DNA from: Octopus vulgaris
Lineage: Eukaryota
NCBI GenBank assembly: GCA_951406725.2
Contig: OX597823.1
Coordinates: 94,612,001-94,676,000, forward strand
DNA: 64,000 nucleotides
Direction of reading: 5' to 3'
The notes under the pieces were generated by a model, which was not told where the DNA came from, made no database searches, and was given only the letters and a program-made list of their open reading frames with translations. The position numbers and the translations under genes were made by a program. This document shows positions 16,425-50,447 of the stretch, piece after piece. Within the stretch, counting starts at the first letter, position 1. Every line of letters starts with the position of its first letter.

Positions 16425-16920
16425 CAGTTCTATATTCAAGAGATGAGGAATTATTTACATTTGACGGATATTTGTCCTCATCTTGTTTGTTGTTAACACA
16501 ACGTTTCAGCTGATATACCCTCCAGCCTTCATCAGGTGTCTTAGGGAAATTTTGAACCTGCATTCTCATTCCTAAGGTATTTTTTCCGAGTTCAATTCCA
16601 GACAGTGACCTGAATAATTATAATAATAATAGTAATTTTACCTGTAAATTTGCGTGTGTAATCTGGGAATGCATACAATGAGCTTCTCTGCCCTAGGTGT
16701 ACGGAAAACACTCAGCGAGAAACGGAAAAAAATTTGAAGAAAGAAGGAAAAATAATAATAATAATAACAATAATAATAACATCAAAGAAGACCTTAGGAA
16801 TGAGAACCCAGGTTCGAAATTTCCCCAAGACACTTGATGAAGGCTGGAGGGTATATCAGCCAAAATGTTAACAACAAACAAGATGAGGACAAATATCCGT
16901 CAAATGTAAATAATGTAAGC
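16425..16920. mobile_element. Penelope-style hammerhead element, locus A (inverted tail + truncated tRNA head + tail)
   Basis: Inverted tail 16425-16585, head remnant GAGTTCAATTCCAGACAGTGACC, (AAT)n, forward tail 16778-16916. 9-bp TSD ATTTAATTA at 16416-16424 and 16921-16929; sits inside a hAT MITE. Confidence 0.8.
16496..16539 (-). ncRNA. Minimal type I hammerhead ribozyme motif (intact core)
   Basis: ACAC-CUGAUGA-A-GGCUG(GAGGGUAUAU)CAGCU-GAAA-CG-UU-GUGU: stem I ACAC/GUGU, stem II, palindromic ACGU stem III, GUU cleavage triplet. Confidence 0.75.
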
Positions 16921-19431
16921 ATTTAATTATAAAAATGTAATTGGATTTTTTAAACATCAACAGGTTATGAGGGTCCACCTGAGTAAAATAGGAATCAAAG
17001 CAGTCCTTTGGGGGAAAATGCATGTGACTAGGGACCACGTGTGAGCTTGTATTCCCCACTGAAAGTCTGAACATGAAGTCTACACTTCAACAACAAATGA
17101 GAGCTGTGTCCCCTGAAATTGCTGGCCTTGTGCCAAAATTTCAAATCAATATTTGTGATATTGATGATTGAACACCCACATGATCTTAACCTGTTCATGC
17201 TGATCATTTAAACTAACCCTAATTTATAAAGGTATAAAACAAATACTTGACACAAATAGTGGTTTGTGTATGATCTGTGTCAAAGGATGAAACATGTTCT
17301 TATCGTGTATGCAGTCTGCATTAAATGGATTTCAATGAAATTTTTTTGGTCAAAATAATAGTATCTGTGGATTTTCAGGCAATTTCATTTGTGAGAAAAA
17401 TTTCGGCATGAATGGGTTAATCAACAGACAGTTGTTTATTTTCCAATGTTTCTGGCATTAAAATCTCATTTTCTCTTGACAGTTTTTCAAATAAATCCAT
17501 TCGCTCCTCATTCTAGATAAGCCTCATGGTTTTAACTACAAGGCTTACTTTTATAGCAAATTTATTTAAACTTCTAACATACAACTCAATGTATCTATTT
17601 ATTTGAAACACACTGGCCTAGACCTCACCATCGTTGTTTTAATGTCGACTTTTCCATGGGCTGGATGGTGTTCAATGAGACAAATTTTTCAATGGTTGGG
17701 TGCCCTTTTCTTGTTGCCAACCTTTACCTGTTTCCAAACAAGGGAACAGTTCATCATTTCCAGATGTTTTTCTAGAAGATTGGTGATGAATGACCAATCA
17801 CATGATGTCAAGACAAGGAGACACAAATATACATACATTCATGTGTATCATTATCATTATTATTTAACCCCTGTTTGCCATGCTGACATGGATCAGATGG
17901 TTTGACAAGAGCTGGCAAGCCAGAGGACTGCACTAGGCTCCAACTGTCTGTTTCAGCATCGTCTCTACAGCTGGATGCCCTTCCCTTATGTGTGTATACA
18001 TATTTTTCTTCTTAATTGTTTGTCATTTGATTGCGGCCATGATGGAGCACCACCCTAAAGGGTGTTAATTGAAGGAATGGACCTCAGAACTTTTTCTTTG
18101 TAAGTCTAGTTCTCATTCTATCAGTCTCTTTTGCCGAACCACCAAGTTATGGGGACATAAACCAACATCAGTTGTCAAGTGATGGTGGGGGGCAAATACT
18201 CTGAGTTCAAATTCTACCAAGATCAATTTTGCTTTTCATCCTTTCAAGGTCAATAAAATGACTACCAGTTGCATACTGGGGATCGATTCATTCAACTCCC
18301 CCCTCCCCACTAAATTTGCTGGTCTTCTGCTAAAACAAAAATTTGGGCAGCTATTTTGGGGGCTGAAGTATTTCCTGATTGTAAAGGGCAAAATCCGTCT
18401 TTGGGTTGCAGGAATGTTTAGTTATCTTTTCTTTGTTTCAGTCATCAGACTGCGGCCAAGCTGGGGCACTGCCTTGAGGAATTTTTAGTTGAATGAATCA
18501 ACCCTGGTACATTTTTTTTTAAACCTGGTACTTATTCCATTGGCCCCTTTTGCTGAACTGCTAAGCTACAGGGACGCAGACACACCAACACCAGTTGTCA
18601 AGCAGTGGTGGGGAGACAGAGGCACACACACACACAAAGGCTTCTTTCAATTTCTGTAACTCAACTGAAGATAGAAAGCTCCAAATGACCCGTCCTTGTT
18701 TTCTCTTGTCTTTCTTTGTATTGTCTAAAAGTCTGGATGTTTTGTTGTCACTTGTTACGTTTTTGTTCCATTTTTTGTTTTGTTTTAGATATATATATAT
18801 ATATATATATACACGCACACACACACATAAACACATATATATATTTCTTTACTACCCACAAGGGGCTAAACATAGAGGGGACAAACAAGGACAGACAAAG
18901 GGATTAAGTCGATTACACCGACTCCCGTGTGTAACTGGTACTTAATTTATCCACCCCGAAAAGATGAAAGGCAAAGTTGACCTTGGCGGAATTTGAACTC
19001 AAAACGTAGCGTCAGACAAAAAGCCGCTAAGCATTTCACCTGGCGTGCTAACGTTTCTGCCAGCTCACTGCCTTAATTCAATATCTTTCAACTAAAACCA
19101 CTCACAAGGCTTTGGCCGGCCCAAAGCTATAGTAGCAGACATTTGCCCAAGGTGCCGTGCAATGGGACTGAACCTGGAACCATGGAGTTGGGAAGCAGGC
19201 TTCTTACCACACAGCCACTCCTACACCTAGAGTTTTTTTTTTCTTTTGCTATGCTGTGTGATTTCCAGGGCAGATTACAGGGTAGCTGACAAGGTGTGAC
19301 ATTTGCAGCAAGTGTTAACATTTTATTTGCCTATTCTCCATGGCTGAGCAGTATAAAATGCATTGAAAGCTCATAATTAATGTTCCAGACATGTTGTTTC
19401 AGAAATCCTTGATATGGCAATGATAATGTGT

Positions 19432-19498
19432 TCACAGTAATGAGCAGATCAATAAGATATTTATCACAGTGATGAGCAGATCAATAAGATATTTATCA
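19432..19498 (+). repeat. 32-bp tandem duplication
   Basis: TCACAGTRATGAGCAGATCAATAAGATATTTA x2. Confidence 0.85.
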
Positions 19499-20374
19499 CT
19501 GTAGCAAATAATCACCATCAATGAAATTCACAATTTAATCATAGAATAGAATCACTTTTTTCTGTGCTTTAATAGCTTCTAAATTGATATTTATAATTAT
19601 TGAACTGTCAGCATCAACGGTTGAATAATTTCTGAAGGTCATAACTTGTCTGGATCCTTAATTAAATAATAATAATAATAATAATATTAACATTAGCATG
19701 CCAGGTGAAATGCTTAGTGGTATTTCGTCTGCCGCTACGTTCTGAGTTCAAATTCCGCCGAGGTCGACTTTGCCTTTCATCCTTTCAGGATCAATTAAAT
19801 AAGTACCAGTTACGCACTGGGGTCGATATAATTGACTTAATCCATTTGTCTGTCCTTGTTTGTCCTCTCTGTGTTTAGCCCCTTGTGGGTAGTAAAGAAA
19901 TAGGTATTTCGCCTGTCTTTACGTTCTGAGTTCAAATTCCGCCAAGGTCGACTTTGCCTTTTATCCTTTCGGGGTCGATAAATTAAGTACCAGTTACGCA
20001 CTGGGGTCGATATAATCAACTTAATCCCTTTGTCTGTTCTTGTTTGGCCCCTTGTGGGCAATAAAGAAATAATAATAATAATAATAATAATAATATTGAT
20101 TCTTTTGACAGTTATTTTTTTTTATGTATATATATATATATAAACTGTCCTTTGAAAGAGGGCAGTTTATATATACATATATTGTGCCGGTGCCAATTGA
20201 AAAGCACCCAGTACACTTTGTAAAGTGGTTGGCATTAGGATGAGCTTCCAGCTGTAGAAACTTTGCCAAAACAGACACTGGAACCCAGTGCAGCTCTCTG
20301 CCAACCTCTGTCAAATCATCCAACTCATGCCAACAAGAAAAACAGACCTGAAATGAAGTTGAGGATGATTCATA

Positions 20375-20578
20375 TACTCTCTTTTCCTTGTTTCAGTCAT
20401 TTGACTGTGGCTATGCTGGAGCACCGCCTTTAGTCAAGCAAATTGACCCAAGACTTATCCTTTGTAAGCCTAGTACTTATTCTATCAGTCTCTTTTGCCG
20501 AACCACTAAGCTACAGGAGACATAAACACACCAGCATCGGTTGTCAAGTGTTATTGGGGGGACAAACATAGACACACA

Positions 20579-20671
<93 letters not shown>

Positions 20672-20825
20672 GACGGGCTTCTTTCAGTTTCCATCTACCA
20701 AATCTACTCACAAGGCTTTGGTTGGCCTGAGGCTATAGTAGAAGACACTTGCCCATGGTGCCACGCAGTGGGACTGAACCCGGAACCATGTGATTGGTAA
20801 GCAAGCTACTTACCATACAGCCACA
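20375..20825 (-). mobile_element. tRNA-derived SINE family B (GGCGCAGGAGTGGCTGTGTGGTAAG head, internal (TA)n/(TG)n, GAGTAAAA tail)
   Basis: Full or partial copies at 1668-1822, 2020-2180, 19083-19225, 24206-24610, 27400-27695, 28273-28620, 38312-38696, 42368-42745 and 55800-55950. Confidence 0.85.
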
Positions 20826-22433
20826 GGCCTGTGGAACTTGAACTAGCATGGAACCAAATCTGTTTTAAATAATATATGTATCCCCTACTAAATGTGTTGA
20901 GTGCCCTTTTCTTGCTTTTGTTCACTCACTCATATCATCATCATCGTTTAACATCTGCTTTCCTTGCTGGCATGGGTTGGAAAGTTTGACTGAAAACTGG
21001 CAGGCCTGGAGGCTGCACCAAGCTCGATCTGATTTGACAAGGTTTCTACAGCTGGGTGCCCTTCCTAATGCCAACCACTCCGAAAGTGTAGTGGGTGCTT
21101 TTTACATGCCAGCACCATGGGTGCCAGTCAGGCAACACACACACACATCTATCTATATATGTTTGTGTGTGTGTGTTAGAGATTACAGACAGCTGGTAGG
21201 AATTGAGTCAAATATAACTGAATTACTGGAACTCACCTTAGCAATGTCAATAGGAATAAAAGTCTGAGTTCAGCAGAATGTGGAATCATCATCATCATCA
21301 TCATCACAATGTCCACTTCTCTATGCTTCCACGAGTCAGATAGAATTTGTTGAGGAAGAATTTTTGTGGACCAGATGCCCTTCACGTTGTTGCCAGCCCT
21401 CACATATTTCCAAGCAAGGCCAGACATATTTTCCATGAAAGACTGGAAAAGAACAAGACTGCTTGTATGACACTGTTGCTCATTTGTGACCCATCACATG
21501 ATGTCAAGACAAGGGTAGACCCAGACACACATGCACACATACAGCAGGCTTCTTTCAGTTTCTATCGATCAAAATTCATTCACAAGGCATTGGTCTGCCT
21601 GAGGTTATAGTAGAAGACACCTGCCCAAGATGCTTCAGAGTGGGATTGAACCCTGGACCATGTAGTTGGGAAACAAACTTGTTAACCTCCACAGCCTGCA
21701 TCCCTGCCACTTCTGTATCTGTTGAACTCATAATTCTTAGAAATGAAAGGAAATACCAATTTCACACATTGACAAAACATTACAGATTTTTATTAAGGGT
21801 GGAATGTGGGGTATTGTCAGGGGCATCAACCATCTCCCAGCCACCCCGTTCCCAACACATAACTGGTTCTTTATTAGCAGTCCAGGATTGTGAGTGACGT
21901 ACAGAGTAAAGCCTTCAACCATTCTCAATGTGAGTGTAAGTGAGATGAAGAACGCACCATTCAATTGTTCCACAGGTGTTTGAAGTGTGAAAGAGGTGAA
22001 GAAATTTCGGTGGGGGAAAAAAAAAAAATGGTGTAAGAACTGGAATTGGTGAGAAGCTTTTAAGAAGTGTGAAATTCCAAATTCCCTTGATAGGAAATGC
22101 ATTGTTTAAAAACAGCAAAACCAGCACTAGTAACGATAAGATTTGTGATGTTCATAACGATGACGATGAGAAATTTTCAGCTTTGAAGATGATTAAAGTT
22201 TACGTTTCCTCACAACTGATGCTATTTTTTTCTCAAACTTATTGTTTTTGCTTAGAATCAACTTCATTGAAAACCTTTTCTCTTAAAATGGATTCTTCTA
22301 TTGTTAAACTGCTTTCCCTTCCTTTTGTGATATTTTATCACCATATTCATTGTTTGGTGTGAGATTTCCATGGAAATTATTGTTTCTTTCTGATTTACCG
22401 ATACCTTCATCTCATCTGGTGCAGGTTTCCTTT

Positions 22434-22498
<65 letters not shown>

Positions 22499-23474
22499 TC
22501 TCTGCCACAGTCTCAGCTGTTTTGCTTTTCTCCTGCAAATTCAACCAGTTAATCCCAGGAATAAAAAGATTTTCCCAAATATCCAACTTACAGGTTTTAT
22601 CTCTTCTTTTATCTTTTACTCATTTCTGCCTTTCGACTGTGGCCATGCTGGGGCACTGCCTTGAATGAGTCCAGTTAAAGGAATTGACCCTGCTACTTCT
22701 GCTTTGTTTTTAAGCCTGACACTTATTCTATTGGTCTCTTTTGTCAAACTGCTAAGTTACAGAGACATAAAATACCACCACCACTTGTCAAGTGGTGGTG
22801 GCCAACAAACACACACAAAGACACAAAGATGATAAGGTGGCGAGCTGGCAGAAACGTTAGCACACAGGGCGAAATGCTTAGCAGTATTTCGTTTGCCATT
22901 ACGTTCTGAGTTCAAATTCCGCCGAGGTCAACTTTGCCTTTCATTCTTTCGGGACTGATTAAATAAGTACCAGTTATGCACTGGGAGTAGATGTAATCGA
23001 CTTAATCCATTTGTCTGTCCTTGTTTGTCCCCTCTATGTTTAGTCCCTTGTGGGCCATAAAGAAATGAATATTTGTGGTAGACAGACATAATGTCAAGTA
23101 AAATGACCGAACTTGACTTTTATTTTTCTAAATATTATTTTTGAAAACCAACGTTTAATCGAGAACAACTGAAATCGAAACGACTTAAGCCGAGGTATGC
23201 CAGTATTGTTTTTTACTTTTGTGTCAGCAATGCTAACAATAATTTGCTGTGCTGGCTCTGAATTCTGTAGAAAATCTATAAACTTAAAGTCTTCTATTTT
23301 GCTGTGCAATTTTTTTCCTATTTTTATCTAAATTCTGTTAGGACAACAGCAGATACCAAGAATAGCAGCAGCCATTAGAAAAGAAAGACATTGACTAAAA
23401 ATATTTCAATGGAAAACCTTGACATTAATATTTTCTTCCTTTTTCTTCCATTTTTTTTTTTCTCTCTTTTCCAG

Positions 23475-23621
23475 ATTTTGCTCGAGCTTCCCAAGGTTTC
23501 TTTGTGGTGGCTCTCGTCTGTCAGCTGGCCTGTCTGATAACCCTCATCTGCTACACAGCCATTTCTCATGCTAACAAAATCATCACAGTCATTTGTCTCT
23601 GCCTCATTGCATTCTCTGCTG
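23475..23621 (+). CDS. PMP22/EMP/claudin-superfamily protein, coding exon 2
   Basis: Polypyrimidine tract + CCAG| acceptor; 147 nt, phase 1 to phase 1; encodes DFARASQGFFVVALVCQLACLITLICYTAISHANKIITVICLCLIAFSA (TM2 and start of TM3); donor G|GTAAGT. Absent from the ORF track. Confidence 0.9.
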
Positions 23622-24345
23622 GTAAGTACCATCCTCTCAGTGACGGCTCTGCTGTTTATGGTGATTGGGTTGTGTAACACAATGCCTAATGTTTGCTCAA
23701 TGGGGTTAAGCTTTTGACATAAGTGTGACCTCACACTCACCAAAGGGAGTTCGTTTAAGGTAATTTTTTTTACCTTTTATCTTTAACTTGTTTCAATCAT
23801 TGGGCTCTGGCCATGCTGGGGCTCTGCCTTGAGGGGTGGATTTTGTCAAGCAAATCCACGGAGAAGTAAACAAATCAACATTCGTTGTCAGGAAAAGGTG
23901 GAGACCAAACTCAGTCACATGCATGGATGGATGGATGGACAAACGGACAGACAAATAGACAAACGGATAGATGGATAGACAAATGGACAGACGGATGGAC
24001 ATGATGTGATGTGACGTGGCAGGTTTCTTTCATTTTCTCTCTACCTAATCCACTCAGAAGTTTTTCCGTTTTACTGTTGTGTCCCACCTATAAGCCCTGG
24101 GCCCACAAATGCATTGGGAGTGAATTTGGAAGATGGAAACTGTGCAGAAACCTGTTTCGTGGGTGTGTGTCTCCCTCTCTTTATGCATTTGCACTCCTAC
24201 CGTTTGACGACTAGTGCTTCCCAACCACATGGTTTGGGGTTCAGTCCCACTGTGTGGCACCTTGGGTAAGTGTCTTCTACTATGGCCTCAAGCCAACCAT
24301 AAGCCTTGTCAGTGGATTTGGTAGAGGGTAACTGAAAGAAGGCTG

Positions 24346-29103: not shown

Positions 29104-29360
29104 GTTGCTTAACACTCATGGGAACAATTGTGATGGCAGTGAAAGGAAAAGATTACCTTTACGCCATGAAAACTCATAATTACCGAACAATAAACAATTT
29201 TCCATCTTTGACAAACGTTGACCTCACCGGACAATTAACGGTCGGCTGGTCCTTGGCCCTGGCCATAGTCTCTGGGTGCTTCACCCTGATAGGCTTTGGA
29301 ATTTGGTTCACGGAGTATCAAGTCTTAAAAACTGCTGAAGAAAACAACAACACAAGATGA
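29104..29360 (+). CDS. PMP22/EMP/claudin-superfamily protein, coding exon 3 (terminal)
   Basis: AAG| acceptor, phase 1; GCLTLMGTIVMAV...TVGWSLALAIVSGCFTLIGFGIWF...EENNNTR*. Total CDS 633 nt = 210 aa. Confidence 0.9.
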
Positions 29361-32738: not shown

Positions 32739-33655
32739 GTAGGGGGGGAGAACTTCCCAATAATAATAATAATCCTTTCTACTAAAAGCAAAAGACCTGA
32801 AATTTGGTGGGAGGGAACTAGTTGATTACATCAACCCCCAACACTTAACTAGTATAAGTTGTACTGACCCCAAAAGGATGAAAGGCAAAGACGACCTCTG
32901 CAGAATTTGAACTCAGAGAGTAAAGACAGACAAAATGCTGCTGTGCATTTTGCCTGATGCGGTAACGATTCTGCCAGCTCACTGCCTTAATAATAATAAT
33001 AATAATAATAAACCTTTCTATTGGAAGCTCAAGGCCTCAAATTTGGTGGAAGGGATTAAGTCGATTACAACGATCCCAGTGTGTAACTGGTACCTATTTA
33101 ACTAACCCCGAAAGGGTGAAAGGCAAAAGTGACCTCAGCAGAATTTGAACTCAGAACATAAGGATGGACGAAATACCACTAAGCATTTTGCCCAGCATGC
33201 TAACAATTCTACCAGCTTGCCACCTTTTTAGTAATATTAATAATAATAATAATCTGGTGTACAAAATGTGTTTAGTGATGGAATTAGTATGTGGTTGATG
33301 GTAAGGGTGGCTGTGCAGTTAAGCAGTTTGTTTTGCAACAAGGTGGTTCTAAGTGTGATCGCAATGCACAACACCTTGGACCGGTGTCTTTTACCAAAGC
33401 CTCGACTGACCAATGCTTTATGAATGGAATTTTACAGGTAAGGAACCATGCAGAAGCCCATTTTATATGCATACATTTGCACATGCATGTGTGTGTATGT
33501 ATGTATATATATATATTACGGAGATGTACTTGCATAGCAAATGACCTGATCTGAGATTGTGTGCTGAAACGAAAACAATTGCAGCGTGGAAGGTGTTTAT
33601 AAGCCATTTAAGAAACACACAAAACCGTTAGATTCATTTCAACATTTAAATTTAA

Positions 33656-33706
33656 TTTGTTAAAATATTTTCGTCACTTTGAGACCGATATCTGTTCACT
33701 GACAAA
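33656..33706 (-). ncRNA. Degenerate hammerhead-like motif with G3-C8 core variant
   Basis: UUUGUCA-GUGAACA-[weak stem II]-GAAA-AUAU-UU-UAACAAA; stem I has one mismatch and stem II is eroded. Confidence 0.35.
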
Positions 33707-33772
33707 ACTTTGTGCTGCATCTCATAATAATGAAAGGGTTAATAATAATAATAATAATTGTTATATATATAT

Positions 33773-37242: not shown

Positions 37243-37551
37243 TCAATCATAAAAACACACGCACACATGTGTGTATACATATACAAATCTACGTACGCAT
37301 ATACATATATATACACATACATACATACACATAAATTTATATCCACATGCACGTCCATACATGTATATATACATGTATGTGCATGTGTTCGCGCACTTGT
37401 ACATATGCCATGTTTTTATTTGCTAGAGGAGGTACAAGGTTACCTGGCCAGAGAGAGAGAGACTGGTGATGAAGAAAGAAACAGGGGTGCTCCATAAAGG
37501 GGACATGTGATTCCCCAACCTGAGGGAAGTGCAGGAGAAGAAAAGAGAGTA

Positions 37552-37970
37552 CAGTTCTATATTTAAGAGATGAGGAATTATGTACATTATTTACATTTGA
37601 CGGATATTTGTCCTCACCTTGTTTGTTGTTAACGCAACGTTTTGGCTGATATACCCCCCAGCCTTTATCAGGTGTCTTGGGGAAATTGATGATGATGATG
37701 ATGATGATGATGCTGCTGCTGCTGCTCACGGGCATATGGCATAGTGGTTAAGAGTGCGGGCTACTAACCCCAAGATTCCAAGTTCGATTCCAGGCAGTGA
37801 CCTGAATAATAATAATAATAATAATAATAACATCGAAAAATACTTTAGGAATGAGAACCCAGGTTTGAAATTTCCCCAAATCACCTGATGAAGGCTGGAA
37901 GGTATATCAACCGAAATGTTGTGTTAACAACAAACAAGATGAGGACAAATATCCGTCAAATGTAAATAAT
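37552..37970 (+). mobile_element. Penelope-style hammerhead element, locus B (inverted tail + tRNA head + (AAT)n + tail)
   Basis: Inverted tail 37552-37687; head 37730-37803 with A box TGGCATAGTGG and B box GTTCGATTCC; forward tail 37829-37970. Confidence 0.8.
37882..37923 (+). ncRNA. Minimal type I hammerhead motif (core intact, stems slightly eroded)
   Basis: CAC-CUGAUGA-A-GGCUG(...)CAACC-GAAA-UG-UU-GUG. Confidence 0.6.
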
Positions 37971-39620
37971 ATAAGAAACGAGAGAGTGGGAGACAGCAGG
38001 ATTGAGATGGTGGCAACAAAGTGCTGGACATACAAGGGATGGGACAGAAAAAGAGAAGCACGAGTTCAAATCCCACTGCAAGTCTAAGAACAAACATCTT
38101 GTCTTTAGACAAGATGTTTAACTCGATCTACAGCCTGAGGTTTTATGCATAATAAAGACTCTATTTTTTACTTACTGGAAAAAAGATTTCTGTTTTGTTT
38201 TCGTTGGTATTTAATTCATTACGTTTGAGTCCAGTTTGCCATAACTTCTTATGTTTCCCAGATTACAAAGGTCTAATTTGTCTCACACACATACACAAGC
38301 AGACTTACATATACTCTTTTACTTGTTTCAGTCATTTGACTGCGGCCATGTTGGAGCACCGCCTTTAATCGAGCAACTCGACCCCGGGACTTATTCTTTT
38401 GTAAGCCCAGTACTTATTCTATCGGTCTCTTTTGCCGAACCGCTAGGTAACGGGGACATAAACACACCAGCATCGGTTGTCAAGCAATGCTAGGGGGACA
38501 AGCACAGACACACGCATATATATACATATATACGACGGGCTTCTTTCAGTTTCCATCTACCAAATTCACTCACAATGCTTTGGTCGCCCCGAGGCTATAG
38601 TAGAAGACACTTGCTCAAGGTGCCACGCAGTGGGACTGAACCCGGGACCACGTGTTTGGTAAACAAGCTACTTACCACACAGCCACTCCTGCGCCTATGT
38701 ATATATTGGTGGAAGGGCTATACAGATTTTGTATCCTTTTCAGGGGATTCATAAGGAAAATAGATTATATGAACTATCTTCATCATCATCAGTTCACATC
38801 CACATTTTTCTGATTGAAATACACCGAAAAATGGCGACACAGCAGTCAAAAAATCGTGAAAAAATAGGGATTTTCATAGAAAAAAAAGCACCTTTTTATG
38901 TAAATAATTTTTGGTGTTAACATGGTCCGATTTGAATTTTTTTCTTCTACGGAAGGAAGAGCAAGCCTTCTTCTATCATACTCTCAATTTTGGTCAACTT
39001 GCGCCGCAGGGTCTCGGAGGAGATAGCGTTAATTGAAGGCTACCAAACCTGCCATACACAGACAACTTCGGTTTTATATATAGAAAGAGATGTTATGAAA
39101 ACAGTGTAGAACAGTTATCTCCCTTACATCTGGTGTCAGCAATGGCAGTTGATGATTTATGTATCTCTTCCAAATCGATTAAAGGAAGAAAGTAATGTCT
39201 GATCGGGACATTTCGAACTCACAACACATTTCAACGGACCATCTTGCAAATCTTCTTTTTCTTTTTCGGTAGTCTTTATTTTTTATCACGTGCTTTCACT
39301 GCACTACTGAACGCAGTCCTGTATACCTTGGGTATCTGCTGTGGTTTATTGTGATTCTCACTGTATTGATAGTGTTTTAGGATGTGTGCGGTGCCTAGTA
39401 GTGAATTTTTTTGTATGCTATACATACTTGTTAGTCCTGGTGTTTTTATTATGTATTTTGTCTGAATGTCTTTTTATTTATTTATCATACCCAAAGCGCC
39501 TACTTATAATAGGATTTGTTTCTGTTCTTAGGCTCCATATTCGAGTTAACTCTTTTTGCAAATCTTTGTATTTTGAAAGTAGTTACCTCTATTTCCAAAT
39601 CTTTTATTAATATTATTATT

Positions 39621-40317: not shown

Positions 40318-41744
40318 GCGATAGAAACAGTTCAAAATAGCATCTTGTAGAAATTCACAACACTAAGGCATTCCGCTGCTGCTGGTATACTCGTGTGCTT
40401 ATCAAACACTAAACGTCTTCATTTTCCATCCACATCTCCCGTAGCCATGGAAGCAATGCCCAGAAGATATCCAGTAGCAAAGATCCATGATCCCAGCCAC
40501 CATTCTTGCAAAGATGTGATGTATCAAGAAGCTGGAACATTCGTACTTATTGTTATTCAGGACCAATGCTGCTTTTTCTGTCTCTAACAATCTTTTAACC
40601 AGGCCGCCACCAATTTGCGACACTAGCGATTTGTTAAAAAAACGATAGATTAAGTACTAGGCTTACAAAGAATAAGTCCTGGGGTCGATTTGCTCGACAA
40701 AAGGCGGTGCTTCAGCATGGCCGCAGTCAAATGACTGAAACGAGTAAAAGAGTAAAAAGAGAGTGAGAAGTCATTTAAAGCCCACACGCACACTGACATA
40801 ATATAAGATATTTCTTTATTGCCCACAAGGGGCTAAACATAGAGGGGACAAACAAGGACAGTCGATTACATCTACCCCAGTGAGTAACTGGTACTTAATT
40901 TATCGACCCCGAAAGGATGAAAGGCAAAGTCGACCTCGGCGGAATTTGAACTCACAACGTAGCGGCAAACGAAATACGGCTACACTTCGCCCAGAGCCAT
41001 GCGATAGACGGATTTTCTTAACCACAGTAAATATTAACTGTCAGAGGACATAACTCTTACATAATTGGATGAAGAGTTATCTCCCTTGCTTAACGATTTC
41101 CCAAGTATTTTAAATTAAAAAATATTAATTTTTGAGATTAACCACAATCGTTAAAATTTCTTTCTGACCCAACAACGAAGACTTCTTCTACTTCAGTGTT
41201 AAATATTATATCCTGCATTGAGGTATCTCAGTCTCGGACATATATGGCGTAAAAGAACCTAAATTATTAACATCCTTAGCAATAAGAAATTCTTACGAAG
41301 TTATTTCCAATAAATGTTTATTGTTTTATACTGTACTTTGTGGCATAACAGACGCAAAATCATATTAGACGCATCCAATTTCAGCAATGCGTATTCAGGA
41401 AAAAGAGTTAGTGTATGGGAGGCCAAACGTTGTACATAGAAAAGTGCATTTTGTACGGTATTTGATCCATTCAACACTTTTAGATTTAGACAAAAATATT
41501 AAGGTTTCCCATTTTGTCTACGCGGTGCTACTTTGGCTTTTGATCTACAAAGGAAATTACTTTAGGTTACCTTTGAGTTTACCCTTCAATTTCAAAAAAT
41601 CCGTAAAATGTTGGCTAAAGGTTTTTACAATGTGATCGGCGACGAGACGAAGGCAGATGCATTTTTACAGGAAACCAACACTAAATTCCCGTCATTTCTT
41701 AATAAAAAGAAAGGTGCCACTTTTGTGTATGGTCTAAAATTTAA

Positions 41745-42215
41745 AAGGAGATTGCCATATTCTGAATGCCTTACTTCCCTGGGCATGGATACACTGAAAC
41801 TCCGACGTCTGGCAGCTGACTTGGCAGACACCCATAAAATTATTAACCATCTTACAACAATAACTCTGAGCACTTTTTCAAACTCCATCTGTCTAACACC
41901 CGTGGACATATTTACAAAGTCAGAAAACAGCACAGCTCCCATGACTTTCGGGAACATTTTTTCACACTAAAAGTTGCTGAAGCATCGAACAAACTGCCGG
42001 CACCAGTTGTTAGTTGTCGGAGCACTGCATCCTTCAAAACTTCCATGCTTCCTGACATTCGCCAATACTACACCTGATTTTCTCCCCTCCATACACACGC
42101 AAGCATGTATCTGACTCATACACTGTTCGCTTTCCAGACATTTGTACATTACTGCATATGCTTTATATGCACTTTTGACAAGTTATGATGCACCTGAGCA
42201 CTGTATACAATAATT

Positions 42216-42253: not shown

Positions 42254-43431
42254 ATACGGTTTTCTTATAATTAAAATAGCATGAAAATGAAAAGTAACCT
42301 TAAGTATCTCTCTTGTAGATTACACGCCAAGATAGCTCCGTCTTGAAACGAACTTGGACTAACATATAGGCGCATGCGTGGCTGTGTGGTGAGAAGTTTG
42401 CTTCCCAACCACATGGTTCTGGGTTCAGTCCCACTGTGTGGAACTCTGAGCAAGTGTCTTCTACTATAGGGACGGGGTGACCAAAGCCTTGTGAGTGGAT
42501 TTGGTACATGGAAACTGAAAGAAGCCTGTCATATGTGTGTGTGTGTCTGTGCGTGCGTGCGTGCGTTTGTTTGTGTGTCTGTGTTTGAACCCTACCATCG
42601 CTTGATAACTGATGTTGGTGTGTTTACGTCTCCATAACTTAGTGGTTCGGCAGAACAGACCGATAGAATAAGAACTAGGCTTACAAAGAATAAGCCCTGG
42701 GGTCAATTTGTTCGACTAGAGGCGGTGCTCCACCATGGCCACAGTGTGTGTGTGTTTTTTTATACAAGAAATTGGAAAATTATTGGTATTATTTATTTAT
42801 TCACCATTACACGTGTTTCGTTTGCTAATAGGAATTATGAAGTTTATCACTTTAGACATGTAAGAAAAATAAGAAAGTTTTCGAACAGAGAATTTAAATA
42901 ATGCAGTATTATTCAATTTCTCACTTTGAGGAATTTCTAATAGGAAATCTCTGACATGCTTATCTAATATGTAAAACTTGTCCTCCTTATTTCTAAGACA
43001 GGATGATGTGAAATAGAAGACTTGGCTGCTGTTTCTAGCAATTCAAATGATGACGTTGAGGTTTCCTTGCTTTTGTGTAAATCTGTGTAAATTCACTGTA
43101 GTACCTGCCCCTTAAGGGGGAGTTAACTACGTACAAATGGCCGCAGTCCGAGTGAAGTAAGTCATTTAATAAGTTCGACCACGCACAACTGACTAAGAAC
43201 AGGGGGTCAAGAACAAATTCTGAAGGGTGGGCAGTCAATATTCTCGACTCCAGCACTGGACTGGTACTGAATGTTATCGACCCCCGAAGGGTTGAAAGAT
43301 GGAGTTGATATCCACGGGATTTGAACTCACAACGTAAAGAGAAGAAATGAATACCGAAAAGGCATTTTTCTCGACGCATTTAACGTGTATGTGTGCGTAA
43401 ATGTATGTAAGCGTGTGTATGTGTGTATATA

Positions 43432-43493
<62 letters not shown>

Positions 43494-44121
43494 TGTGTGT
43501 ATATGAACATGCGCACTTGTGATGTGTGCAACAAGAACTGAATTTTCTATCTTATATTCTTTGATTTTACTTTTAACTTGATAAGTATAAGTTCTTAGAA
43601 TAATCTTAGCAGCAGCAGCAGTGGGGGCGCAATGGACCAGTGGTTAGGGCAGCGGACTCGCGGTCGGAGGATCGCGGTTTCGATTCCCAGACCGGGCGTT
43701 GCGTGTGTTTATTGAGCGAAAACACCTAAAGCTCTACGAGGCTTCGGCAGAGGGGGGGGGGACAACCTCTGTTGTACTCTTTTGCCCCAACTTTCTCTCA
43801 CTCTTTCTTCCTGATTGTTGTCCCCAACTTACCTACGCATCTGCTGAGCCTGGATGCGCATTCATCCATCTGTCGATGCTCTCGGTGTCGGGGGTTGACC
43901 TGCTTTCTCTTCTGCGGGTCTTACGAATAGCAAAGGACCATGTTTCTGACTTCTCCCACTACAGAGGCGCGATCTTGCGAGCTCTGGGACGAAGATCGCT
44001 TAGCTCTACAAACAAACAAACAAACGAGCACCACCAGCAGCAGCAGCAGTAGCAGTAGTAGTAGTAGTAGTTGTTGTTGGTCTTTAGATCACTTCTGTTT
44101 GAACAAGTGACCAATGCCCAA

Positions 44122-44377
44122 GGGTATATGGCGTAGTAGTTAAGAGCGCGGGCTACTAACTCCAAGATTCCAAGTTCGATTCCAGGCAGTGACCTGAATA
44201 ATAATAATAGCAATAATAATAATAATAACAACAATAACATCGAAAAATTCCTTAGGAATGAGAACCCAGGTTTGAAATTTCCTCAAGACACCCGATGAAG
44301 TCTGGAGGTTATATCAGCCAAAACATTGTGTTAACAACAAACAAGATGAGGACAAATATCTATCAAATGTAAATAAT
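44122..44377 (+). mobile_element. tRNA-headed hammerhead element, locus C (core mutated)
   Basis: Same head/(AAT)n/tail order as locus B; core reads CCGATGA...AAAA, so it is presumed inactive. Confidence 0.8.
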
Positions 44378-44819
44378 AAACAGATCAGTTATCTAAAGCA
44401 TTCCAAACGTGACCATCCTATATTTTTAACAGTTTCTCAAGCAACATATTTTTGTTAAAACAAAATAGGATGTGATCTGAGGGAGCTTTGGCTGCTATTT
44501 CTTGCTGGTAGAAAAACCAGGTAGAGACTTTTTCTTAGTGACTCTGTGTGTGTGTGTGTGTGTTTGGTATGCATGTATGTATGGTATTGATATATATGTT
44601 TTGTATGTACGCGCGCGCGTGTGTGATTCCTTTTAACAAAAAAGAAAGAAAAAATAATAAAGTTTGGAAATTCCTCTGCTGGCTGAATAGAATATTTTAA
44701 GATTATTTAAGTTGATAAAAACTTCGATTTATCATACCAGATAAAAGTTTTAATACCAAATGTACAGTCTGCACCCGTCCAAACCTTGATATGAGCAAAT
44801 AAACAAACTAGTAAAATAT

Positions 44820-45217
44820 TCTTTTCTACTTTAGGCACAAGGCCTGAAATTTTGAGGGAGGGACCCAGTCGATTAGATCGACCCCAGTGCGTAACTGGTA
44901 CTTAACTTATCGTCTCCGAAAGAATGAAAGGCAAAGTCGACCTGGACGGAATTTGAACTCGGAACGTAACGGCAGACGAAATACCTATTTCTTTACTACC
45001 CACAAGGGATTAAACACAGAGAGGACAAACAAGGACAGACAAAAGGATTAAGTCGATTACATCGACCCCAGTGAGTAACTGGTACTTATTTAATCGACCC
45101 CGAAAGGATGAAAGGCAAAATCGACCTCGGCGGAATTTGAACTCAGAACGTAGCGGCAGACGAAATACCGCTAAGCATTTCACCCGGCGTGCTAACGTTT
45201 CTGCCAGCTCACCGCTT
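44820..45217 (-). mobile_element. Dimeric family-A SINE inserted as one unit
   Basis: 14-bp TSD AACTAGTAAAATAT at 44806-44819 and 45218-45231; internal junction AAGAAATAG|GTATTTCG. Confidence 0.85.
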
Positions 45218-45358
45218 AACTAGTAAAATATCTACCTGAAAACACCATCATCATCTGTTTAAACTCATGGTTACATCAATCGCCCTCTAAAATGGGGGAG
45301 GATTCTCTACCGCACCCTGTTCTATTAAATCGAAATCTCGCCTAAGTACAAAGGCATA

Positions 45359-45880
45359 CCGTAAATCCTCGAGGATAATCCGCATTTTTTCCCCAAAATT
45401 TAAAGGTCAAAATCCCTAGTGCGTACTATATACGAGGTTAAAAAGGAAAATTATTTTCTAAGCAATGTCCGAGTCTCTATTTGCTGCCCGGCAATGTTTA
45501 TTCAGGCGCATTTTGTGATGTCGGGTGCGAAAATACCTTAAGCTAAGCCTGAAAGCAATGAAGTCATAAAAGAATCATCCATAACTTGCAGTAAGCAACA
45601 TTTATTAAAACAAAAGTATTCAGAACTCAGAATAACATGTAAGAAAAATAATTTGCAAGCATATTTACATTCTCATATAACAGTTAAGAACATCACCATT
45701 ATTGTATTACGCACACGCGGAAGTGTTTGTTCGAGTAGGTGCTGCTGGCTTAATTATGCACGACTCAAGTTAGAGAAGGAGTGAGTATTATTCACAAGGT
45801 TTAGGTTTTTCAGAGGTACAGCCCCTTAAAAATCCCCTGTGTATTATACTCAAGGGTGGACTATACTCGAGGATTTATGG
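45359..45880. mobile_element. pogo/Tc1-mariner-like MITE
   Basis: TA flanks; TIRs CCGTAAATCCTCGAGGATAATCC / GGACTATACTCGAGGATTTATGG. Confidence 0.75.
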
Positions 45881-46074
45881 TATCTACATAATGATGCTCC
45901 ACCTCTCGCTTCGTTTTCTCATAACTTTCCAAAAAGTTTATATTTTTTACTGAAACTTCGCTCAGATACGTTTTTGAATGTGTAGTTTATATTTATGTCG
46001 ACAAAATTTAGAAAAATCATTTTTGGGGAGTATTTCGGACCGTTCTTTCCCCTCCATCTCCTGCCCTTTGTCCT

Positions 46075-46420
46075 CTGGGTAAGAGGTAGGTGCCTCATCT
46101 GGGATGTCACCGTCTGCAACTCCTTTGCTCCCTTTCACACCCTGGATGCTGCAGTAAATGGGAAGATCATTGCTTCCGTAGTCGAATGGAATGAAATCCT
46201 TAAGTATCGTGACTTGACAGGTAACTATCTCTTCCAGCTTGCGGTATTTAAGACATTTGGAGAAGATGGTCCGCTAACAACGAAGTTCTTGTTATCGTTG
46301 GCGCCTCGTCCTACCAAGGTGTTAGGTGATGTCCGCGAGGGTGCTTCACTGTTCCAGCACCAAAACCTTGCCATCACTCGTAGTTATACCGCAAGCGTGT
46401 TGGCTTTCTTCAGCTGGTTC
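46075..46420 (+). pseudogene. CRE-like non-LTR retrotransposon restriction-like endonuclease remnant
   Basis: WVRGRCLIWDVTVCNSFAP...KYRDL...YLFQLAVFKTFG...LFQHQNLAITRSYTASVL resembles the W..G..L.WD.T / KY..L / QRLS.A.QRGNA.SVL C-terminus of CRE-clade elements. Confidence 0.7.
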
Positions 46421-46558
46421 CGTTCAGCTTTCTGACGTGCATCCCATTGGTGTGTTTTTTTTCTTTCTTTCCTTTTTTCCTCTCCCTTTTTCTTTCTTTT
46501 TCTTTCTTCCTCTCTTACTTCCAGTTTCGGAATTGGACTTTTAATGTAGTTCTGTATT

Positions 46559-46939
46559 GGGATCTTTTCAGTTTGAACGGCAGTTTTTAACATAATTTCT
46601 AGTCAACTAAAAAATTTTAAACTTCGTATACTGGTAGAATGTGTTTATAAAACATCATTTTCTCTTGGCTTTCTTGAGAAAATTCTGTAGTTTGTAACAT
46701 ATTTCGTCTTTAATTTCTTGCATTTCGGCAATTTTAACCAATCAAATACGTCCATTGAGGTAAAAAACATTCTGTGCCGTATGAATATGTCCCTCCTTTA
46801 AGAAACAGATTTGGTTTATTTATATTTGTGAAGAAAAAAAAGATACCCTTCCCCCACCCCTAACCCTAACCCTAAATCTAAAATTTTTTAGTTACCTAGA
46901 AATTATGTTAAAAACTGCCGTTCAAACCGAAAAGATCCC
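46559..46939. mobile_element. MITE with ~55-bp TIRs and internal (CCCTAA)n
   Basis: GGGATCTTTTCAGTTTGAACGGCAG... / ...CTGCCGTTCAAACCGAAAAGATCCC; telomeric repeat at ~46858-46875; left-half copy at 49866-50069. Confidence 0.8.
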
Positions 46940-47349
46940 TATATTTATCTTTTTCTTGTTTCTTGTTTCTGTCATTAGACTGCGGCCATGCTGGTGCATC
47001 GTCTTCAAGAACCTTTAGCCGGACGAAGCGCCATCGCCGGGAAACGAACTCACAACCTTACGATCGAGGGGCCGAATACTCTGACATGTTAAGTTAATCT
47101 CAAAATAAAACGTAAATAAAAAAAATAACAGTAATAGTATCCCATTTTGGTACAAGGCCAGCGATTTTAGGGGAGAGGGGTCTGGTCGATTACATTGACC
47201 CCAGTGTTCAACTGGTACTTATTTTATCGATACCGGAAGGGATGGAAGGCAAAGTCGCCCTCAGCGGAAGAACAGACGATGTAAATGATGGCTGGTTGGC
47301 TGGCTGGCTGGCTGGCTGAATTCTGAAATTACACTTTACAAGAAAGAAA

Positions 47350-47373
47350 GTCACAGAGAGAGGGGGAGGGAGA

Positions 47374-47408
<35 letters not shown>

Positions 47409-47810
47409 TAGAAGCGAGAGGGGAAGGAGAGTGTGTGCGTGTGTGTGAGAGAGAGAAAGAGAGGGGGAGGGAGAGCGTGTGTGTGTGTGTGAGAGAGAGA
47501 GAGAGTAGAAGCGAGAGGGGAAGGAGAGTGTGTGTGTGAGCGAGAGAGAGAGAAAGAGAGAGAGGAGGGAGACTGCGTGTGTGTGTGTGTGTGAGAGAGA
47601 GAAAGAGTAGAAACGAGATACAGAGTGTTAACATAAGAGGTGCAAGATGAGCGCACGTACGAGGCTTGGTGGCACCCAATGGGTAAAAGGAAACTACAGA
47701 GAGAGAGAGAGAGAGGGAGAAAGAAAGAAGAGAGAAAAAGGGAAAGAAAGAGAAAAGGAAAGAAGAAAAATTCATAGCCAGTGGAAAGAGAATGTGTGTG
47801 TGTGAGTGTG
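47350..47810. repeat. Purine-rich (GA)n/(GT)n compound minisatellite
   Basis: Repeating units GAGAGTAGAAGCGAGAGGGGAAGGAGAGTGTGTG. Confidence 0.85.
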
Positions 47811-48864
47811 TTTGAAATTCATGGTGAGAGAACATTTTTCAACTTTTTGTAAATGTTAATTTTTACATTTTGCATATTGTTTTATTTAACGGTAAGAAAT
47901 ATATTTTTTTTTGTTTTGAAAAGTTAGTATTCCATCATTTTGTATAAGCTCCAAAAAACATTTGATAACAGTTAAATTATGATTATTGAATGTATGGCCA
48001 TATTTCCTGATATTACCCATAACTGCAAAAGTATACTTCTAAATCTTGTTGTCTTGGGAGGGTCGTTACGCCAACAATAATGATACACGCACTGGTTCAT
48101 TATCACTTCTTTATTGTTAGTCAATTGCTTAGATATTTAGCTTACTTACTAATCGATTGTGTTAAGCAATCAATCGGTTGTTTGTTAGTCAACCAGTGTG
48201 TGTGTGTGTGTGTTTATTAGTATTGGTGCAATGGCCTTCCCAAGACATAAGACTTGTTTCAACACACTAATTCACATTAAGAACCTTGCAAACAAAATAC
48301 ATAGACCAAGTATACTTCTAAAATTCAGCAACATATACGTTTTGAACGAGAATGTAAGAAAACGTAGCCAATGACCACCACTCTACAGGCCCTGTCCTCG
48401 GTGAATACACAGACCATTGAGTACATTCATTGAGTCATAAAAATAAAAGACAAACGGAGCCAGAACAAATAAATGATAAAGAAAAGGTTATAAAATGTAA
48501 GAAACATGTTCATAGGATGTTTGTAAGGCGGCGAGCTGGCAGAAACGTTAGCACGCCGGGCGAAATGCTTAGCGGTATTTCGTCTGCCGTTACGTTCTGA
48601 TTTCAAATTCCGCCGAGGTCAACTTTGTCTTTCATCCTTTCGGGGCCGATTAAATAAGTACCAGTTACGCACTGGGGTCGATATAATCGACTTAATCCCT
48701 TTGTCTGTCCTTGTTTGTCCCCTCTGTGTTTAGCCCCTTGTGGGTAGTAAAGAAATAGGTATTCCTACCTAGTCAAGATTTTAGCTGGTATTTCTAGCTA
48801 TTCAAGCAACCACATGGAAGACAGGTCTCAGGTCAGTATTCATCCAGAAGATTATAATAAAAGA

Positions 48865-49247
48865 CTAGCAGTATCGCCCGGCGTTGCTCAGGTTTGTAAG
48901 GGAAATAACTATAAAGCATTTTTAGAGAGTTATAGCCAAAAAATAGCCAAAAAATGGAAAAAAATGATGGTAAATTTTTTTGAGAGTTAAAAAAGGTGGA
49001 GTTGCGTCCCCTAGACGGTCTGTGGTTTGGGTTTCTGATTCTCGACCCCATGTCGAATTTATCGATTTTTTTCAGAACTGGAGGAACTTTTCAAAATTTT
49101 CGCTGCGTTAGTTTTGAATTATGACATTGGGCTATGTGTGTGTCAAGTTTCATCAGAATCGGTTGAAAGCCGTGGTCAGGGTGAGGGTACGAGAAAACAG
49201 ACACACAGAAACACGCACAGACAAACTGCCGTTTATATAGAGAGAGA
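48865..49247 (-). mobile_element. Short non-autonomous Helitron
   Basis: On the minus strand: A|TC start, hairpin GAGCAACGCCGGGCG, CTAG|T end; same 5' family as 13144-14297. Confidence 0.8.
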
Positions 49248-50172
49248 TGGTCAAATGATGATTAATTCGTCGCTGTTTATTTATACACTGTATATATCTA
49301 GACCCAGATTATCGTGTGTATCCTTCGTTCTTTTTATGAAAGTCACCAAACACTGACTTAAAAGATTTCTGAACTGTTGTTTCTAGCAGTTCAACCCATG
49401 TATGAAGTGAGGAATCGGCATAACTACAGAATGGTGCCCCTCCTGACTTTGTTTCTTTCTAATTTTCTGAAATATGCACATTTTTCAATGAAATGTTGAA
49501 GAGATAGATTTTGAAGAGGGAAGATTATAATTATAGGAATAAAAACTAGAAAAAATGTAGATTGATATCTTAAAGGTCGTTCTTTCACTCCTCTGTCCCG
49601 ACTTTCTTGCCAATTCCTGTAACTTTAGGGTTTTTTTTTTATTATTTCTTCCTCACGAATTATGTTTCAAACATCAACGTTACGTAATCTAAACTCTCAG
49701 AAACGTATTTGAGTGAAATGGTATTAAAAAATAGGCGTTTTAAAGTCATGAGAAAACAAATCGGAGGGAGAGAATGATCTGAAACTCCTTCAAAGAAGAT
49801 TTTTTTAATGTTATCAACATAATAGTATTCTACACCCAAAAAACGTATTTCTGCAAAATATTTTTGGGATCTTTTCGCTTTGACCGACAGATTTTTAAAA
49901 TAATTTCCACGTAACTAAACACTTTTAAACTTCGTATGCTGGTAGAATGTGTTTATAAAACATCTTTTTCTCTTGGCTTTCTTGAGAAAATTCTGTAGTT
50001 TGTAAGCTATTTGTTCTTTAATTTCTTGCATTTCGGCAATTTCAACCAATCAATGACGTCTATTGAGGTGAATTCTATTTAAACGTGTACATTAAAGAAA
50101 GTTATGAGGAAACAAAGTCGGAAGGAGAGAGAGAATGATCTGGAACTCCTAAAAAAAAACTTTATTTTTCAT

Positions 50173-50447
50173 ATTTCGGTTTTGGATTTGGTTTGCAAGA
50201 TTCTTTATATGAATTCGTGTGTTGAAGCATATTCTGTTGTGTCTGGGGAGAGTCATTTTCTTTTTGTGCCTTATTATGTAACACACTCACCGGTAAAATT
50301 TCCACTTTTTTTAAACTATTGAAAAGGTTGCAAGACGCAACGAAAATTTTAGGACAATAGAAATAAGAAAAGAGTGGAAATTTTACCGGTGAGTGTGTTA
50401 AATAATAAGGCACAAAAAGAAAATGACTCTCCCCAGACACAACAGAA
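50173..50447. mobile_element. Penelope-style fold-back insertion with hammerhead variant
   Basis: 12-bp TSD TTTATTTTTCAT (50161-50172 and 50448-50459); ~78-bp inverted arms at 50231-50309 and 50370-50447. Confidence 0.75.
50316..50352 (+). ncRNA. Minimal hammerhead motif, U3-A8 core variant
   Basis: CUA-UUGAAAA-G-GUUGC(AAGAC)GCAAC-GAAA-AU-UU-UAG: perfect stem II, palindromic AAUU stem III, stem I CUA/UAG truncated at the inversion junction. Confidence 0.55.

What the first reader, a model, noticed from the sequence alone, without database searches (positions are those of the whole stretch)
16496..50352. Three unrelated repeats show hammerhead cores with covarying 3-8 base pair (C3-G8, U3-A8, G3-C8)
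Seen: cores CUGAUGA (16496-16539 minus, 37882-37923), UUGAAAA (50316-50352) and GUGAACA (33656-33706 minus). Each is followed by a stem II, GAAA, a self-complementary mini stem III (ACGU, AAUU, AAUAUU), U at position 17, and a closing stem I; the first two families also have one extra base after A9. Established: positions 3 and 8 form a tertiary Watson-Crick pair and compensatory swaps can retain activity. Inference: covariation in otherwise unrelated sequences suggests selection on ribozyme structure, and standard CUGANGA motif searches would miss these families. The G3-C8 case rests on one eroded copy.
Basis: partly seen in the sequence, partly recalled or inferred. Interest (0 to 1): 0.8.

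Follow-up and report, generated by a model that had tools for sequence, protein, structure and literature searches.

The report
Penelope-type minimal hammerheads, G3-C8 variant
The motifs are real minimal hammerhead-ribozyme shapes carried by jumping-gene leftovers of a known kind, but one very abundant repeat family has a catalytic-core base pair (G3-C8) that I found in the papers I could search only as a lab-made mutant.

Summary
Observation confirmed. All four sites are minimal type I hammerheads of the kind published for Penelope-like elements (PLEs). They sit in repeats with PLE hallmarks: inverted partner copies, an optional 3' tail and, for B, a target duplication.

Family A (C3-G8) and the U3-A8 swap (B) are known; Schistosoma Sm4 has the same UUGAAAA core.

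In four sequencing runs it is a very high-copy family. Its majority letters repair stem II (2/5 to 5/5 pairs) and stem I (6/7 to 7/7), and no other letter reaches 8% at G3, C8 or the core.

Two corrections. C also has one extra base after A9. B and C are not unrelated: they align outside the ribozyme (0 of 1000 shuffles as good), and their four differences in 26 ribozyme positions form two compensated pairs (3-8; 10.3-11.3).

Natural G3-C8 was not found in my searches, but Lünse 2017 was unavailable. Cleavage and expression are untested, B rests on one copy, and genomic copies decay neutrally.

Verdict: new variant of a known kind.

The parts
16495..16540 (-). Family A minimal hammerhead, C3-G8 (C3 16535, U17 16500), extra A after A9, stem III ACGU; best-kept A copy
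16420..16449 (-). Family A optional 3' tail (about 30-36 nt), shared with the 37550 copy and absent from the three plus-strand copies
16754..16919 (+). Family A copy inverted against the 16496 copy; core broken (U3.G8, A12, 5-nt deletion)
37550..37687 (-). Family A 5'-truncated inverted copy with tail; core broken (C3.A8, A12)
37729..37805 (+). tRNA-like head of family A (A box 37737, B box 37781); tRNA origin inferred, not called by ARAGORN or Rfam
37881..37925 (+). Family A hammerhead, C3-G8 (C3 37885, U17 37920); stem III AUGU, one stem II mismatch
44121..44377 (+). Family A copy with tRNA-like head, (AAT)n linker and broken hammerhead (C4, A12)
50316..50352 (+). Family B hammerhead, U3-A8 (U3 50319, A8 50324, U17 50349), extra G, 5-bp stem II, stem III AAUU, 3-bp stem I
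50173..50447 (.). Whole B insertion: 81-nt arms 98% complementary (50231-50311 / 50368-50448), tail 50173-50230 on the left arm only, 12-bp direct repeats at 50161-50172 / 50448-50459
33656..33706 (-). Family C hammerhead, G3-C8 (G3 33699, C8 33694, U17 33663); eroded copy of a family whose majority has extra G, 5-bp stem II, AAUAUU stem III, 7-bp stem I
33515..33720 (-). Whole C element; family 3' ends at about 33515 and 33573, i.e. an optional tail of about 58 nt homologous to the B tail
48044..48307 (.). Element D, a relative of B/C with inverted arms, tail and 15-bp direct repeats; no hammerhead found in its spacer

Best explanation
The sites are minimal type I hammerheads of short non-coding repeats derived from the pseudo-LTR ends of Penelope-like retroelements and spread by a PLE protein. 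Two lineages are present: A (canonical C3-G8, some copies fused to a tRNA-like Pol III head) and B/C/D. Within the second, the tertiary 3-8 pair has switched between U-A (B) and G-C (C). Shown: the motifs, the PLE-type insertion anatomy, the family state of C and the B/C homology. Inferred: in source-element transcripts two motifs pair through the palindromic stem III (ACGU, AAUU, AAUAUU) and cleave slowly after U17, probably helped by the PLE protein, and selection on that active fold fixed the compensated 3-8 pair. Genomic copies, including these, are mostly dead relics decaying neutrally. My odds for the identity part (PLE-type minimal hammerhead) are about 0.9. The confidence below includes the selected-for-cleavage part.
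For: Motif matches the published metazoan PLE consensus CUGANGAH G..C GAAAN-palindrome-NUH (PMC4209133 supplement): extra base after A9, G10.1-C11.1, palindromic 15.2-16.2. Opposite-strand pairs a few hundred bases apart, as in PMC4209133. Tail on one member of each inverted pair, as in PMC8557442 and PMC11167929. B and C short ends fall in the same register, 98 and 90 nt after the predicted cut. C majority repairs all four broken pairs and keeps the core. B versus C majority: 22 of 26 non-loop ribozyme positions identical against 71 of 112 outside; the 4 differences form two full Watson-Crick pairs (rough post hoc chance 2e-4). Engineered C3G/G8C partly restores cleavage in a PLE hammerhead, which cleaved only with protein (PMC11167929).
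Against: No cleavage or expression data. No PLE ORF is linked to any family: a motif scan of six frames gave 1 unconvincing hit, and family motifs did not match the Naiad/Chlamys/Hydra sequences in one supplement. B rests on one copy; its family was not sampled. The 3-8 switch is one event, and given that both bases changed a Watson-Crick result has 1 chance in 3. Stem III of B and C is all A-U and B's stem I is 3 bp, so activity would be weak. Published min-HHRs cleave poorly, and catalysis was not needed for PLE insertion in vitro. B/C tails (about 58 nt) are longer than the published 30-40 bp. The reads were filtered at 80% likeness to an eroded copy, and depth over the core's 5' half is about a fifth of the peak or less, so divergent subfamilies may be missed. 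Relative D shows no hammerhead.
Confidence: 0.6

Rival explanations
1. PLE-derived hammerhead fold kept only as a protein-recognition or folding element, or as a passenger. It does not cleave usefully, and G3-C8 is a chance or weakly selected outcome in one successful master element.
For: HHR catalytic mutants did not affect PAc insertion in vitro, and no reads ended at the cut site. Naiads thrive without canonical HHRs. One 3-8 event with 1-in-3 chance of pairing. D appears to lack the motif.
Against: All other core positions are identical between B and C despite 36% divergence outside. The 3-8 pair is a tertiary pair of the active site (PMC8495972), so a binding-only role explains its compensation less well.
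Confidence: 0.29
2. The repeats are SINE-, MITE- or retrozyme-like elements moved by something other than a PLE, which captured or inherited hammerhead motifs.
For: Family A has a tRNA-like head with A/B boxes. B looks like an inverted-repeat element with a 12-bp target duplication. No PLE ORF was seen.
Against: Asymmetric tail plus inverted truncated partner is described as typical of or unique to PLEs. C occurs here as a single non-inverted unit with two alternative 3' ends, which a MITE would not. Copies are dispersed, not tandem as in non-LTR retrozymes.
Confidence: 0.08
3. The non-canonical cores B and C are chance matches to a loose pattern in AT-rich DNA.
For: The relaxed descriptor gives 0.35 WC hits per shuffled window. 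Among 12 collection hits to a B/C-type pattern that I judged chance, 6 were WC at 3-8 by my reading (several look like related sequences), so 3-8 pairing alone is weak evidence.
Against: Strict descriptor 0 WC hits in 40 shuffles; family repair of C; B/C homology with compensated changes.
Confidence: 0.02
4. Individual copies were domesticated to cut the host transcript, for example the intron of the claudin-like gene.
For: The 16496/16800 pair lies between two claudin-like exon candidates (for the first, below Pfam's cut-off; the second by inspection).
Against: The intact copy is antisense to that gene and the sense copy has a broken core. The other sites lie outside it.
Confidence: 0.01

Closest known systems
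Minimal hammerheads (min-HHR) of metazoan Penelope-like elements, Cervera & de la Peña 2014, PMC4209133 (read: main text parts 1-2 of 4; supplement file 2 parts 1-2 of 3; file 1 not searchable)
   Same: Type I, extra base after A9, G10.1-C11.1, palindromic mini stem III, H17, dispersed single motifs and opposite-strand pairs. U3-A8 variant with about 1,300 hits in S. mansoni; row Sm4 has the heptamer UUGAAAA of family B and lies in a full Cercyon PLE. AAUU stem III in Crassostrea.
   Different: 0 of the 56 rows of Fig. S3 has G at position 3. The extra base is G in B and C (consensus H; G in 1 of 56 rows). No cephalopod row. Family A has a tRNA-like head.
Natural U3-A8 core covariation, Perreault et al. 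2011, PMC3088659 (passages)
   Same: C3-G8 covaries to U3-A8 in several natural hammerheads.
   Different: The passages seen name only U3-A8, not G3-C8.
PAc (Poseidon, Anolis) hammerhead and tail, Frangieh et al. 2024, PMC11167929 (parts 1-2 of 4)
   Same: Optional tail between two RT start sites 111-118 nt into the ORF with the cut at +26, i.e. about 85-92 nt after the cut (my subtraction), against 90 nt in C and 98 nt in B. C3G/G8C partly active; cleavage protein-assisted.
   Different: G3-C8 there is an engineered mutant. PAc is autonomous; the repeats here are non-coding, with a tail of about 58 nt in B/C.
PLE-associated dimeric hammerhead variants, Lünse, Weinberg & Breaker 2017 (not held; seen only as cited in PMC6765202)
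   Same: Short stem III, dimer cleavage, PLE association.
   Different: Unknown whether G3-C8 examples are included. This is the main gap in the novelty claim.
Non-LTR retrozymes / Schistosoma Sm-alpha SINE-like repeats (bioRxiv 10.64898/2026.07.22.740005 part 1 of 5; PMC6765202 passages)
   Same: Non-autonomous, hammerhead-bearing, PLE-related; promoter followed by a hammerhead in Sm-alpha.
   Different: Those are tandem and/or carry canonical HHRs; these are dispersed minimal motifs with a PLE tail.
Octopus tRNA-derived SINEs of Ohshima & Okada 1994 (title seen in a reference list; content not seen)
   Same: Family A may be one of them (recalled lead only).
   Different: Not tested; the organism of the window was not established by any search.

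Membership tests
Hammerhead ribozyme (type I, minimal) | Core N3-UGA-N-N8-A ... GAAA ... UH with Watson-Crick 3-8 pair | tested here: met
   4 of 4 zero-mismatch hits; C core invariant at the 8% level in 4 of 4 runs
Hammerhead ribozyme (type I, minimal) | Strict canonical C3 and G8 | tested here: not met
   Met by A only; B is U3-A8 (published variant), C is G3-C8
Hammerhead ribozyme (type I, minimal) | Stems I and II, G10.1-C11.1 | tested here: met
   B 3 bp + 5 bp; C majority 7 bp + 5 bp; A 4-5 bp + 5-6 bp (the 16496 copy has G.U at 10.1-11.1)
Hammerhead ribozyme (type I, minimal) | Self-cleavage after H17 | not testable with these tools
   Only assembled contigs were available; needs an assay
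Rfam hammerhead families | Match to a curated covariance model | tested here: not met
   No hammerhead family among 69 matches at E<=5
PLE min-HHR | One extra base between A9 and 10.1; palindromic minimal stem III | tested here: met
   A: extra A, ACGU; B: extra G, AAUU; C majority: extra G, AAUAUU
Penelope-like element derivative | Inverted 5'-truncated partner copy | tested here: met
   A twice, B, D; opposite-strand joints among C contigs; the window C copy itself is single
Penelope-like element derivative | Optional 30-40 bp tail at one end | tested here: met
   A about 30-36 nt in 2 of 5 copies; B/C about 58 nt, longer than published
Penelope-like element derivative | Linkage or homology to an RT + GIY-YIG ORF flanked by pLTRs | tested here: inconclusive
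   None in the window by a crude motif scan; no genome held; family motifs not matched in PMC8557442 supplement
tRNA-derived SINE (family A) | tRNA-related head with A and B boxes | tested here: inconclusive
   Boxes present in 2 of 2 heads examined, with 0-1 mismatch; ARAGORN and Rfam tRNA negative
Non-LTR retrozyme | Head-to-tail tandem units each with an HHR | tested here: not met
   Copies in the window are dispersed or inverted

The most novel reading that the evidence does not exclude
Family C is an undescribed natural hammerhead with a G3-C8 active-site pair, amplified to very high copy number. It is separated from its U3-A8 sister by a compensated double transversion that could only pass through a mismatch. 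That would be natural evidence that the catalytic fold, not just the stems, of PLE hammerheads is under selection. It would also mean that CUGANGA-based surveys undercount PLE ribozymes, perhaps including PLE clades now said to lack them. As a side case, family A would be a tRNA-headed SINE moved by a Penelope-like element rather than a LINE.
Probability: 0.3. Interest if true: 0.62.

Novelty: new variant of a known kind. Interest (0 to 1): 0.44.

Why it matters
Whether PLE hammerheads matter to the element or merely ride along is open: they cleave weakly, and catalysis was dispensable for insertion in vitro. A sister pair of natural families differing by a compensated swap at the active-site 3-8 pair is a ready-made test. 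With thousands of copies, subfamily trees can show whether the switch passed quickly through a mismatch. It also shows that descriptors should allow any Watson-Crick pair at 3-8. The general phenomenon (min-HHR in PLE repeats, U3-A8) has been in print since 2011-2014, which caps the interest.

Tried and rejected
No whole genome is held, so no genome-wide consensus and no R-scape test.

Run search: no RNA holder listed, which is no evidence on expression.

Exact-pattern scans for relatives found nothing: viral contigs, metagenome (67), genomes (68); blastn of B against plasmids (69). A B/C-type core pattern gave 5 metagenome and 7 genome hits. All 12 were dropped as chance because, on inspection, none combines a palindromic stem III with H17 and a closing stem I.

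Rfam gave only microsatellite-driven miRNA-type matches below gathering score, including MIR2599 on the B palindrome, which I rejected. Homology of A to B or C was tested and not found (171 and 809 of 1000 shuffles as good). The 5' leaders of B and C do not align (863 of 1000). The B-right-arm versus C comparison alone was weaker (2 of 1000 shuffles, 26 of 1000 window segments). A local alignment of B with C was only marginal (3 of 300 shuffles). Unconstrained co-folding of two C copies did not give the stem-III dimer as the minimum-energy form, so the dimer is inferred from literature only.

The idea that B/C derive from octopus Naiads was probed only by short-motif searches in the PMC8557442 supplement, with no supporting match; line wraps and cut runs make this weak. 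The 59471-59806 palindrome has no hammerhead or target duplication by my scans.

Literature searches for natural G3-C8 found only engineered uses. Hammerhead + octopus (25 of 51 listed) found nothing on this. Searches for PLE-moved SINEs were read as listings only, apart from passages of PMC13282606 and PMC10886601. Most subscription papers are outside the library.
Full report
Setting. The window is AT-rich (GC 0.35-0.44 per 2-kb bin), microsatellite-rich animal-type DNA full of interspersed repeats. It has claudin-like exon candidates at about 15.2-15.6 kb (Pfam PF00822, E=0.0025, below cut-off) and about 29.2-29.4 kb (by inspection). From recall the repeat content looks cephalopod; no call established the organism. 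No genome is held.

Observation. The four sites are as described. A strict descriptor finds A16496 and B, against 0 Watson-Crick and 3 mismatched hits in 40 shuffled windows. Copy C needs a relaxed descriptor that gives 0.35 Watson-Crick hits per shuffled window, so on its own it was not significant. No Rfam hammerhead model matched at E<=5.

Family A (C3-G8). There are five copies. Two form head-to-head inverted pairs (16496-/16800+ and 37600-/37882+). In both pairs only the minus copy carries a 3' extension of about 30-36 nt. Two copies have a head with Pol III A and B boxes followed by (AAT)n; ARAGORN and Rfam do not call it a tRNA. Three of five copies have lost G12, consistent with CpG decay, and two have uncompensated 3-8 changes (U3.G8, C3.A8). 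The copies therefore decay neutrally. The intact 16496 copy is antisense to the presumed host intron.

Family B (U3-A8). One copy. The ribozyme lies in the 56-nt spacer between 81-nt arms that are 98% complementary. The insertion is bounded by a 12-bp direct repeat, and the left arm runs on for 58 nt beyond the right arm's end. The near-identical arms suggest a young insertion, so U3-A8 is probably the source state (inference). The family was not sampled.

Family C (G3-C8). Laying contigs of four runs, labelled organisms A, B, C and D from four studies, on 33510-33745 at 80% likeness placed 13,290, 10,287, 5,607 and 8,747 contigs. It is a very high-copy repeat spanning about 33515-33720; the tool warns that summed depth is not a copy number. 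Within the ribozyme the majority differs from the window copy at five places, at 84-99% of depth in every run. These changes turn stem II from 2/5 to 5/5 and stem I from 6/7 to 7/7 Watson-Crick pairs, with G10.1-C11.1 and one extra G after A9. Five random changes achieve both stems in 611 of 1,000,000 trials. No other letter reaches 8% at G3, C8 or any core position. An 18-31% variant at 33660 turns U-A into U.G, and minor variants at 33688/33689 fit CpG decay. Caveats: contigs only, an 80% filter against an eroded copy, and depth over 33686-33709 about a fifth of the peak or less. Loose ends mark two 3' ends, about 33515 (all four runs) and 33573 (listed for two runs; the table was cut). Opposite-strand joints are also present.

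B and C are sisters. Outside the ribozyme, B's left arm plus tail aligns with C at 71 of 112 columns (score 66.5; 0 of 1000 dinucleotide shuffles, best 45.5; 2 of 1000 random window segments, probably self-overlaps, not checked). Tail against tail also gives 0 of 1000, with the short ends in the same register. A is not detectably related to either (171 and 809 of 1000). Across 26 non-loop ribozyme positions, B and the C majority differ at four: 3, 8, 10.3 and 11.3. These form two complete Watson-Crick swaps (rough post hoc chance 2e-4). Stem I has different sequences in the two and pairs in both. A third relative, D (48044-48307), has inverted arms, the tail and a 15-bp direct repeat, but no hammerhead by my scan. 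So 'three unrelated repeats' is wrong. There are two lineages, and the U-A/G-C switch is covariation between homologues. It is a single event: given that both bases changed, pairing has 1 chance in 3.

What it is. Cervera and de la Peña (PMC4209133; main text parts 1-2 of 4 and supplement file 2 parts 1-2 of 3 read) describe this architecture in PLE pseudo-LTRs: extra base after A9, G10.1-C11.1, palindromic mini stem III, dispersed single motifs, and pairs on opposite strands 100-700 bp apart. They also report a U3-A8 variant with about 1,300 hits in S. mansoni. Their row Sm4 has B's heptamer in a full PLE, and a similar S. japonicum row has C3-G8. Perreault et al. (PMC3088659, passages) had reported natural U3-A8. 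Inverted truncated partners and an optional 30-40 bp tail are PLE hallmarks (PMC8557442, passages). The tail reflects two RT start sites about 85-92 nt after the hammerhead cut in PAc (PMC11167929, parts 1-2 of 4; my subtraction), against 90 and 98 nt for the short ends of C and B and 53 nt for A. I found no PLE ORF to close the link.

How it likely works. Shown: structure, family state, insertion anatomy. From literature: such motifs are inactive as monomers and cleave weakly as dimers; PAc's cleaves only with protein and is dispensable for insertion in vitro; C3G/G8C partly rescues. Inferred: source transcripts dimerise through the palindrome and cleave after U17, and selection on the active fold in source elements fixed G3-C8. 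The main rival is a non-catalytic or passenger fold with a lucky pair.

Novelty. In Fig. S3 of PMC4209133, 0 of 56 rows has G3. Four searches for G3-C8 wording returned only engineered uses (PMC3884650, PMC11167929, PMC8495972; passages or parts seen). Passages of two other papers (PMC6155905; PMC10085705) did not mention it. The octopus repeat annotation PMC13282606 has no mention of hammerheads or ribozymes in its main text (supplement not read). Lünse et al. 2017, the largest survey of these variants by my recall, is not held, most subscription papers are outside the library, and supplement file 1 of PMC4209133 could not be searched. 'Unreported' is therefore about an even bet. Earlier findings of this scan describe the same general kind in other genomes; I did not check them, and none of the listed lines mentions the 3-8 swap.

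Verdict. A real feature of a known kind, with one probably new natural core variant in a very abundant family and a clean sister-family comparison. New variant of a known kind; interest 0.44.

Noticed in passing
window 37729-37973 and 44121-44377: Family A joins a tRNA-like Pol III head and (AAT)n to a PLE-type hammerhead end, with a PLE-type tail in other copies: possibly a SINE moved by a Penelope-like element. May be one of the octopus SINEs of Ohshima & Okada 1994 (recall, untested).
   Followed up: partly
window 48029-48322: Element D: relative of B/C with inverted arms, tail and a 15-bp direct repeat; spacer has no recognisable hammerhead.
   Followed up: partly
window 59471-59806: 336-bp palindrome (86% self-complementary) with no hammerhead or target duplication found; unexplained, MITE-like or another inverted insertion.
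   Followed up: partly
window 15234-15554 and about 29180-29360, + strand: Exon candidates of a claudin/PMP22-like gene (first: PF00822 E=0.0025, below cut-off; second by inspection).
   Followed up: partly
window 11744-12097, 41566-41970, 45986-46435(-): Stop-free stretches that look like decayed non-LTR retrotransposon ORF ends (by recall); Pfam gave no support for the two that were scanned.
   Followed up: partly
window 16584-16636: Part of the family A head lies on the plus strand directly abutting the minus-strand body of the 16496 copy, i.e. an internal inversion.
   Followed up: no
window 12529-12570: Weak blastn match (E 3e-5) to element D; not examined.
   Followed up: no
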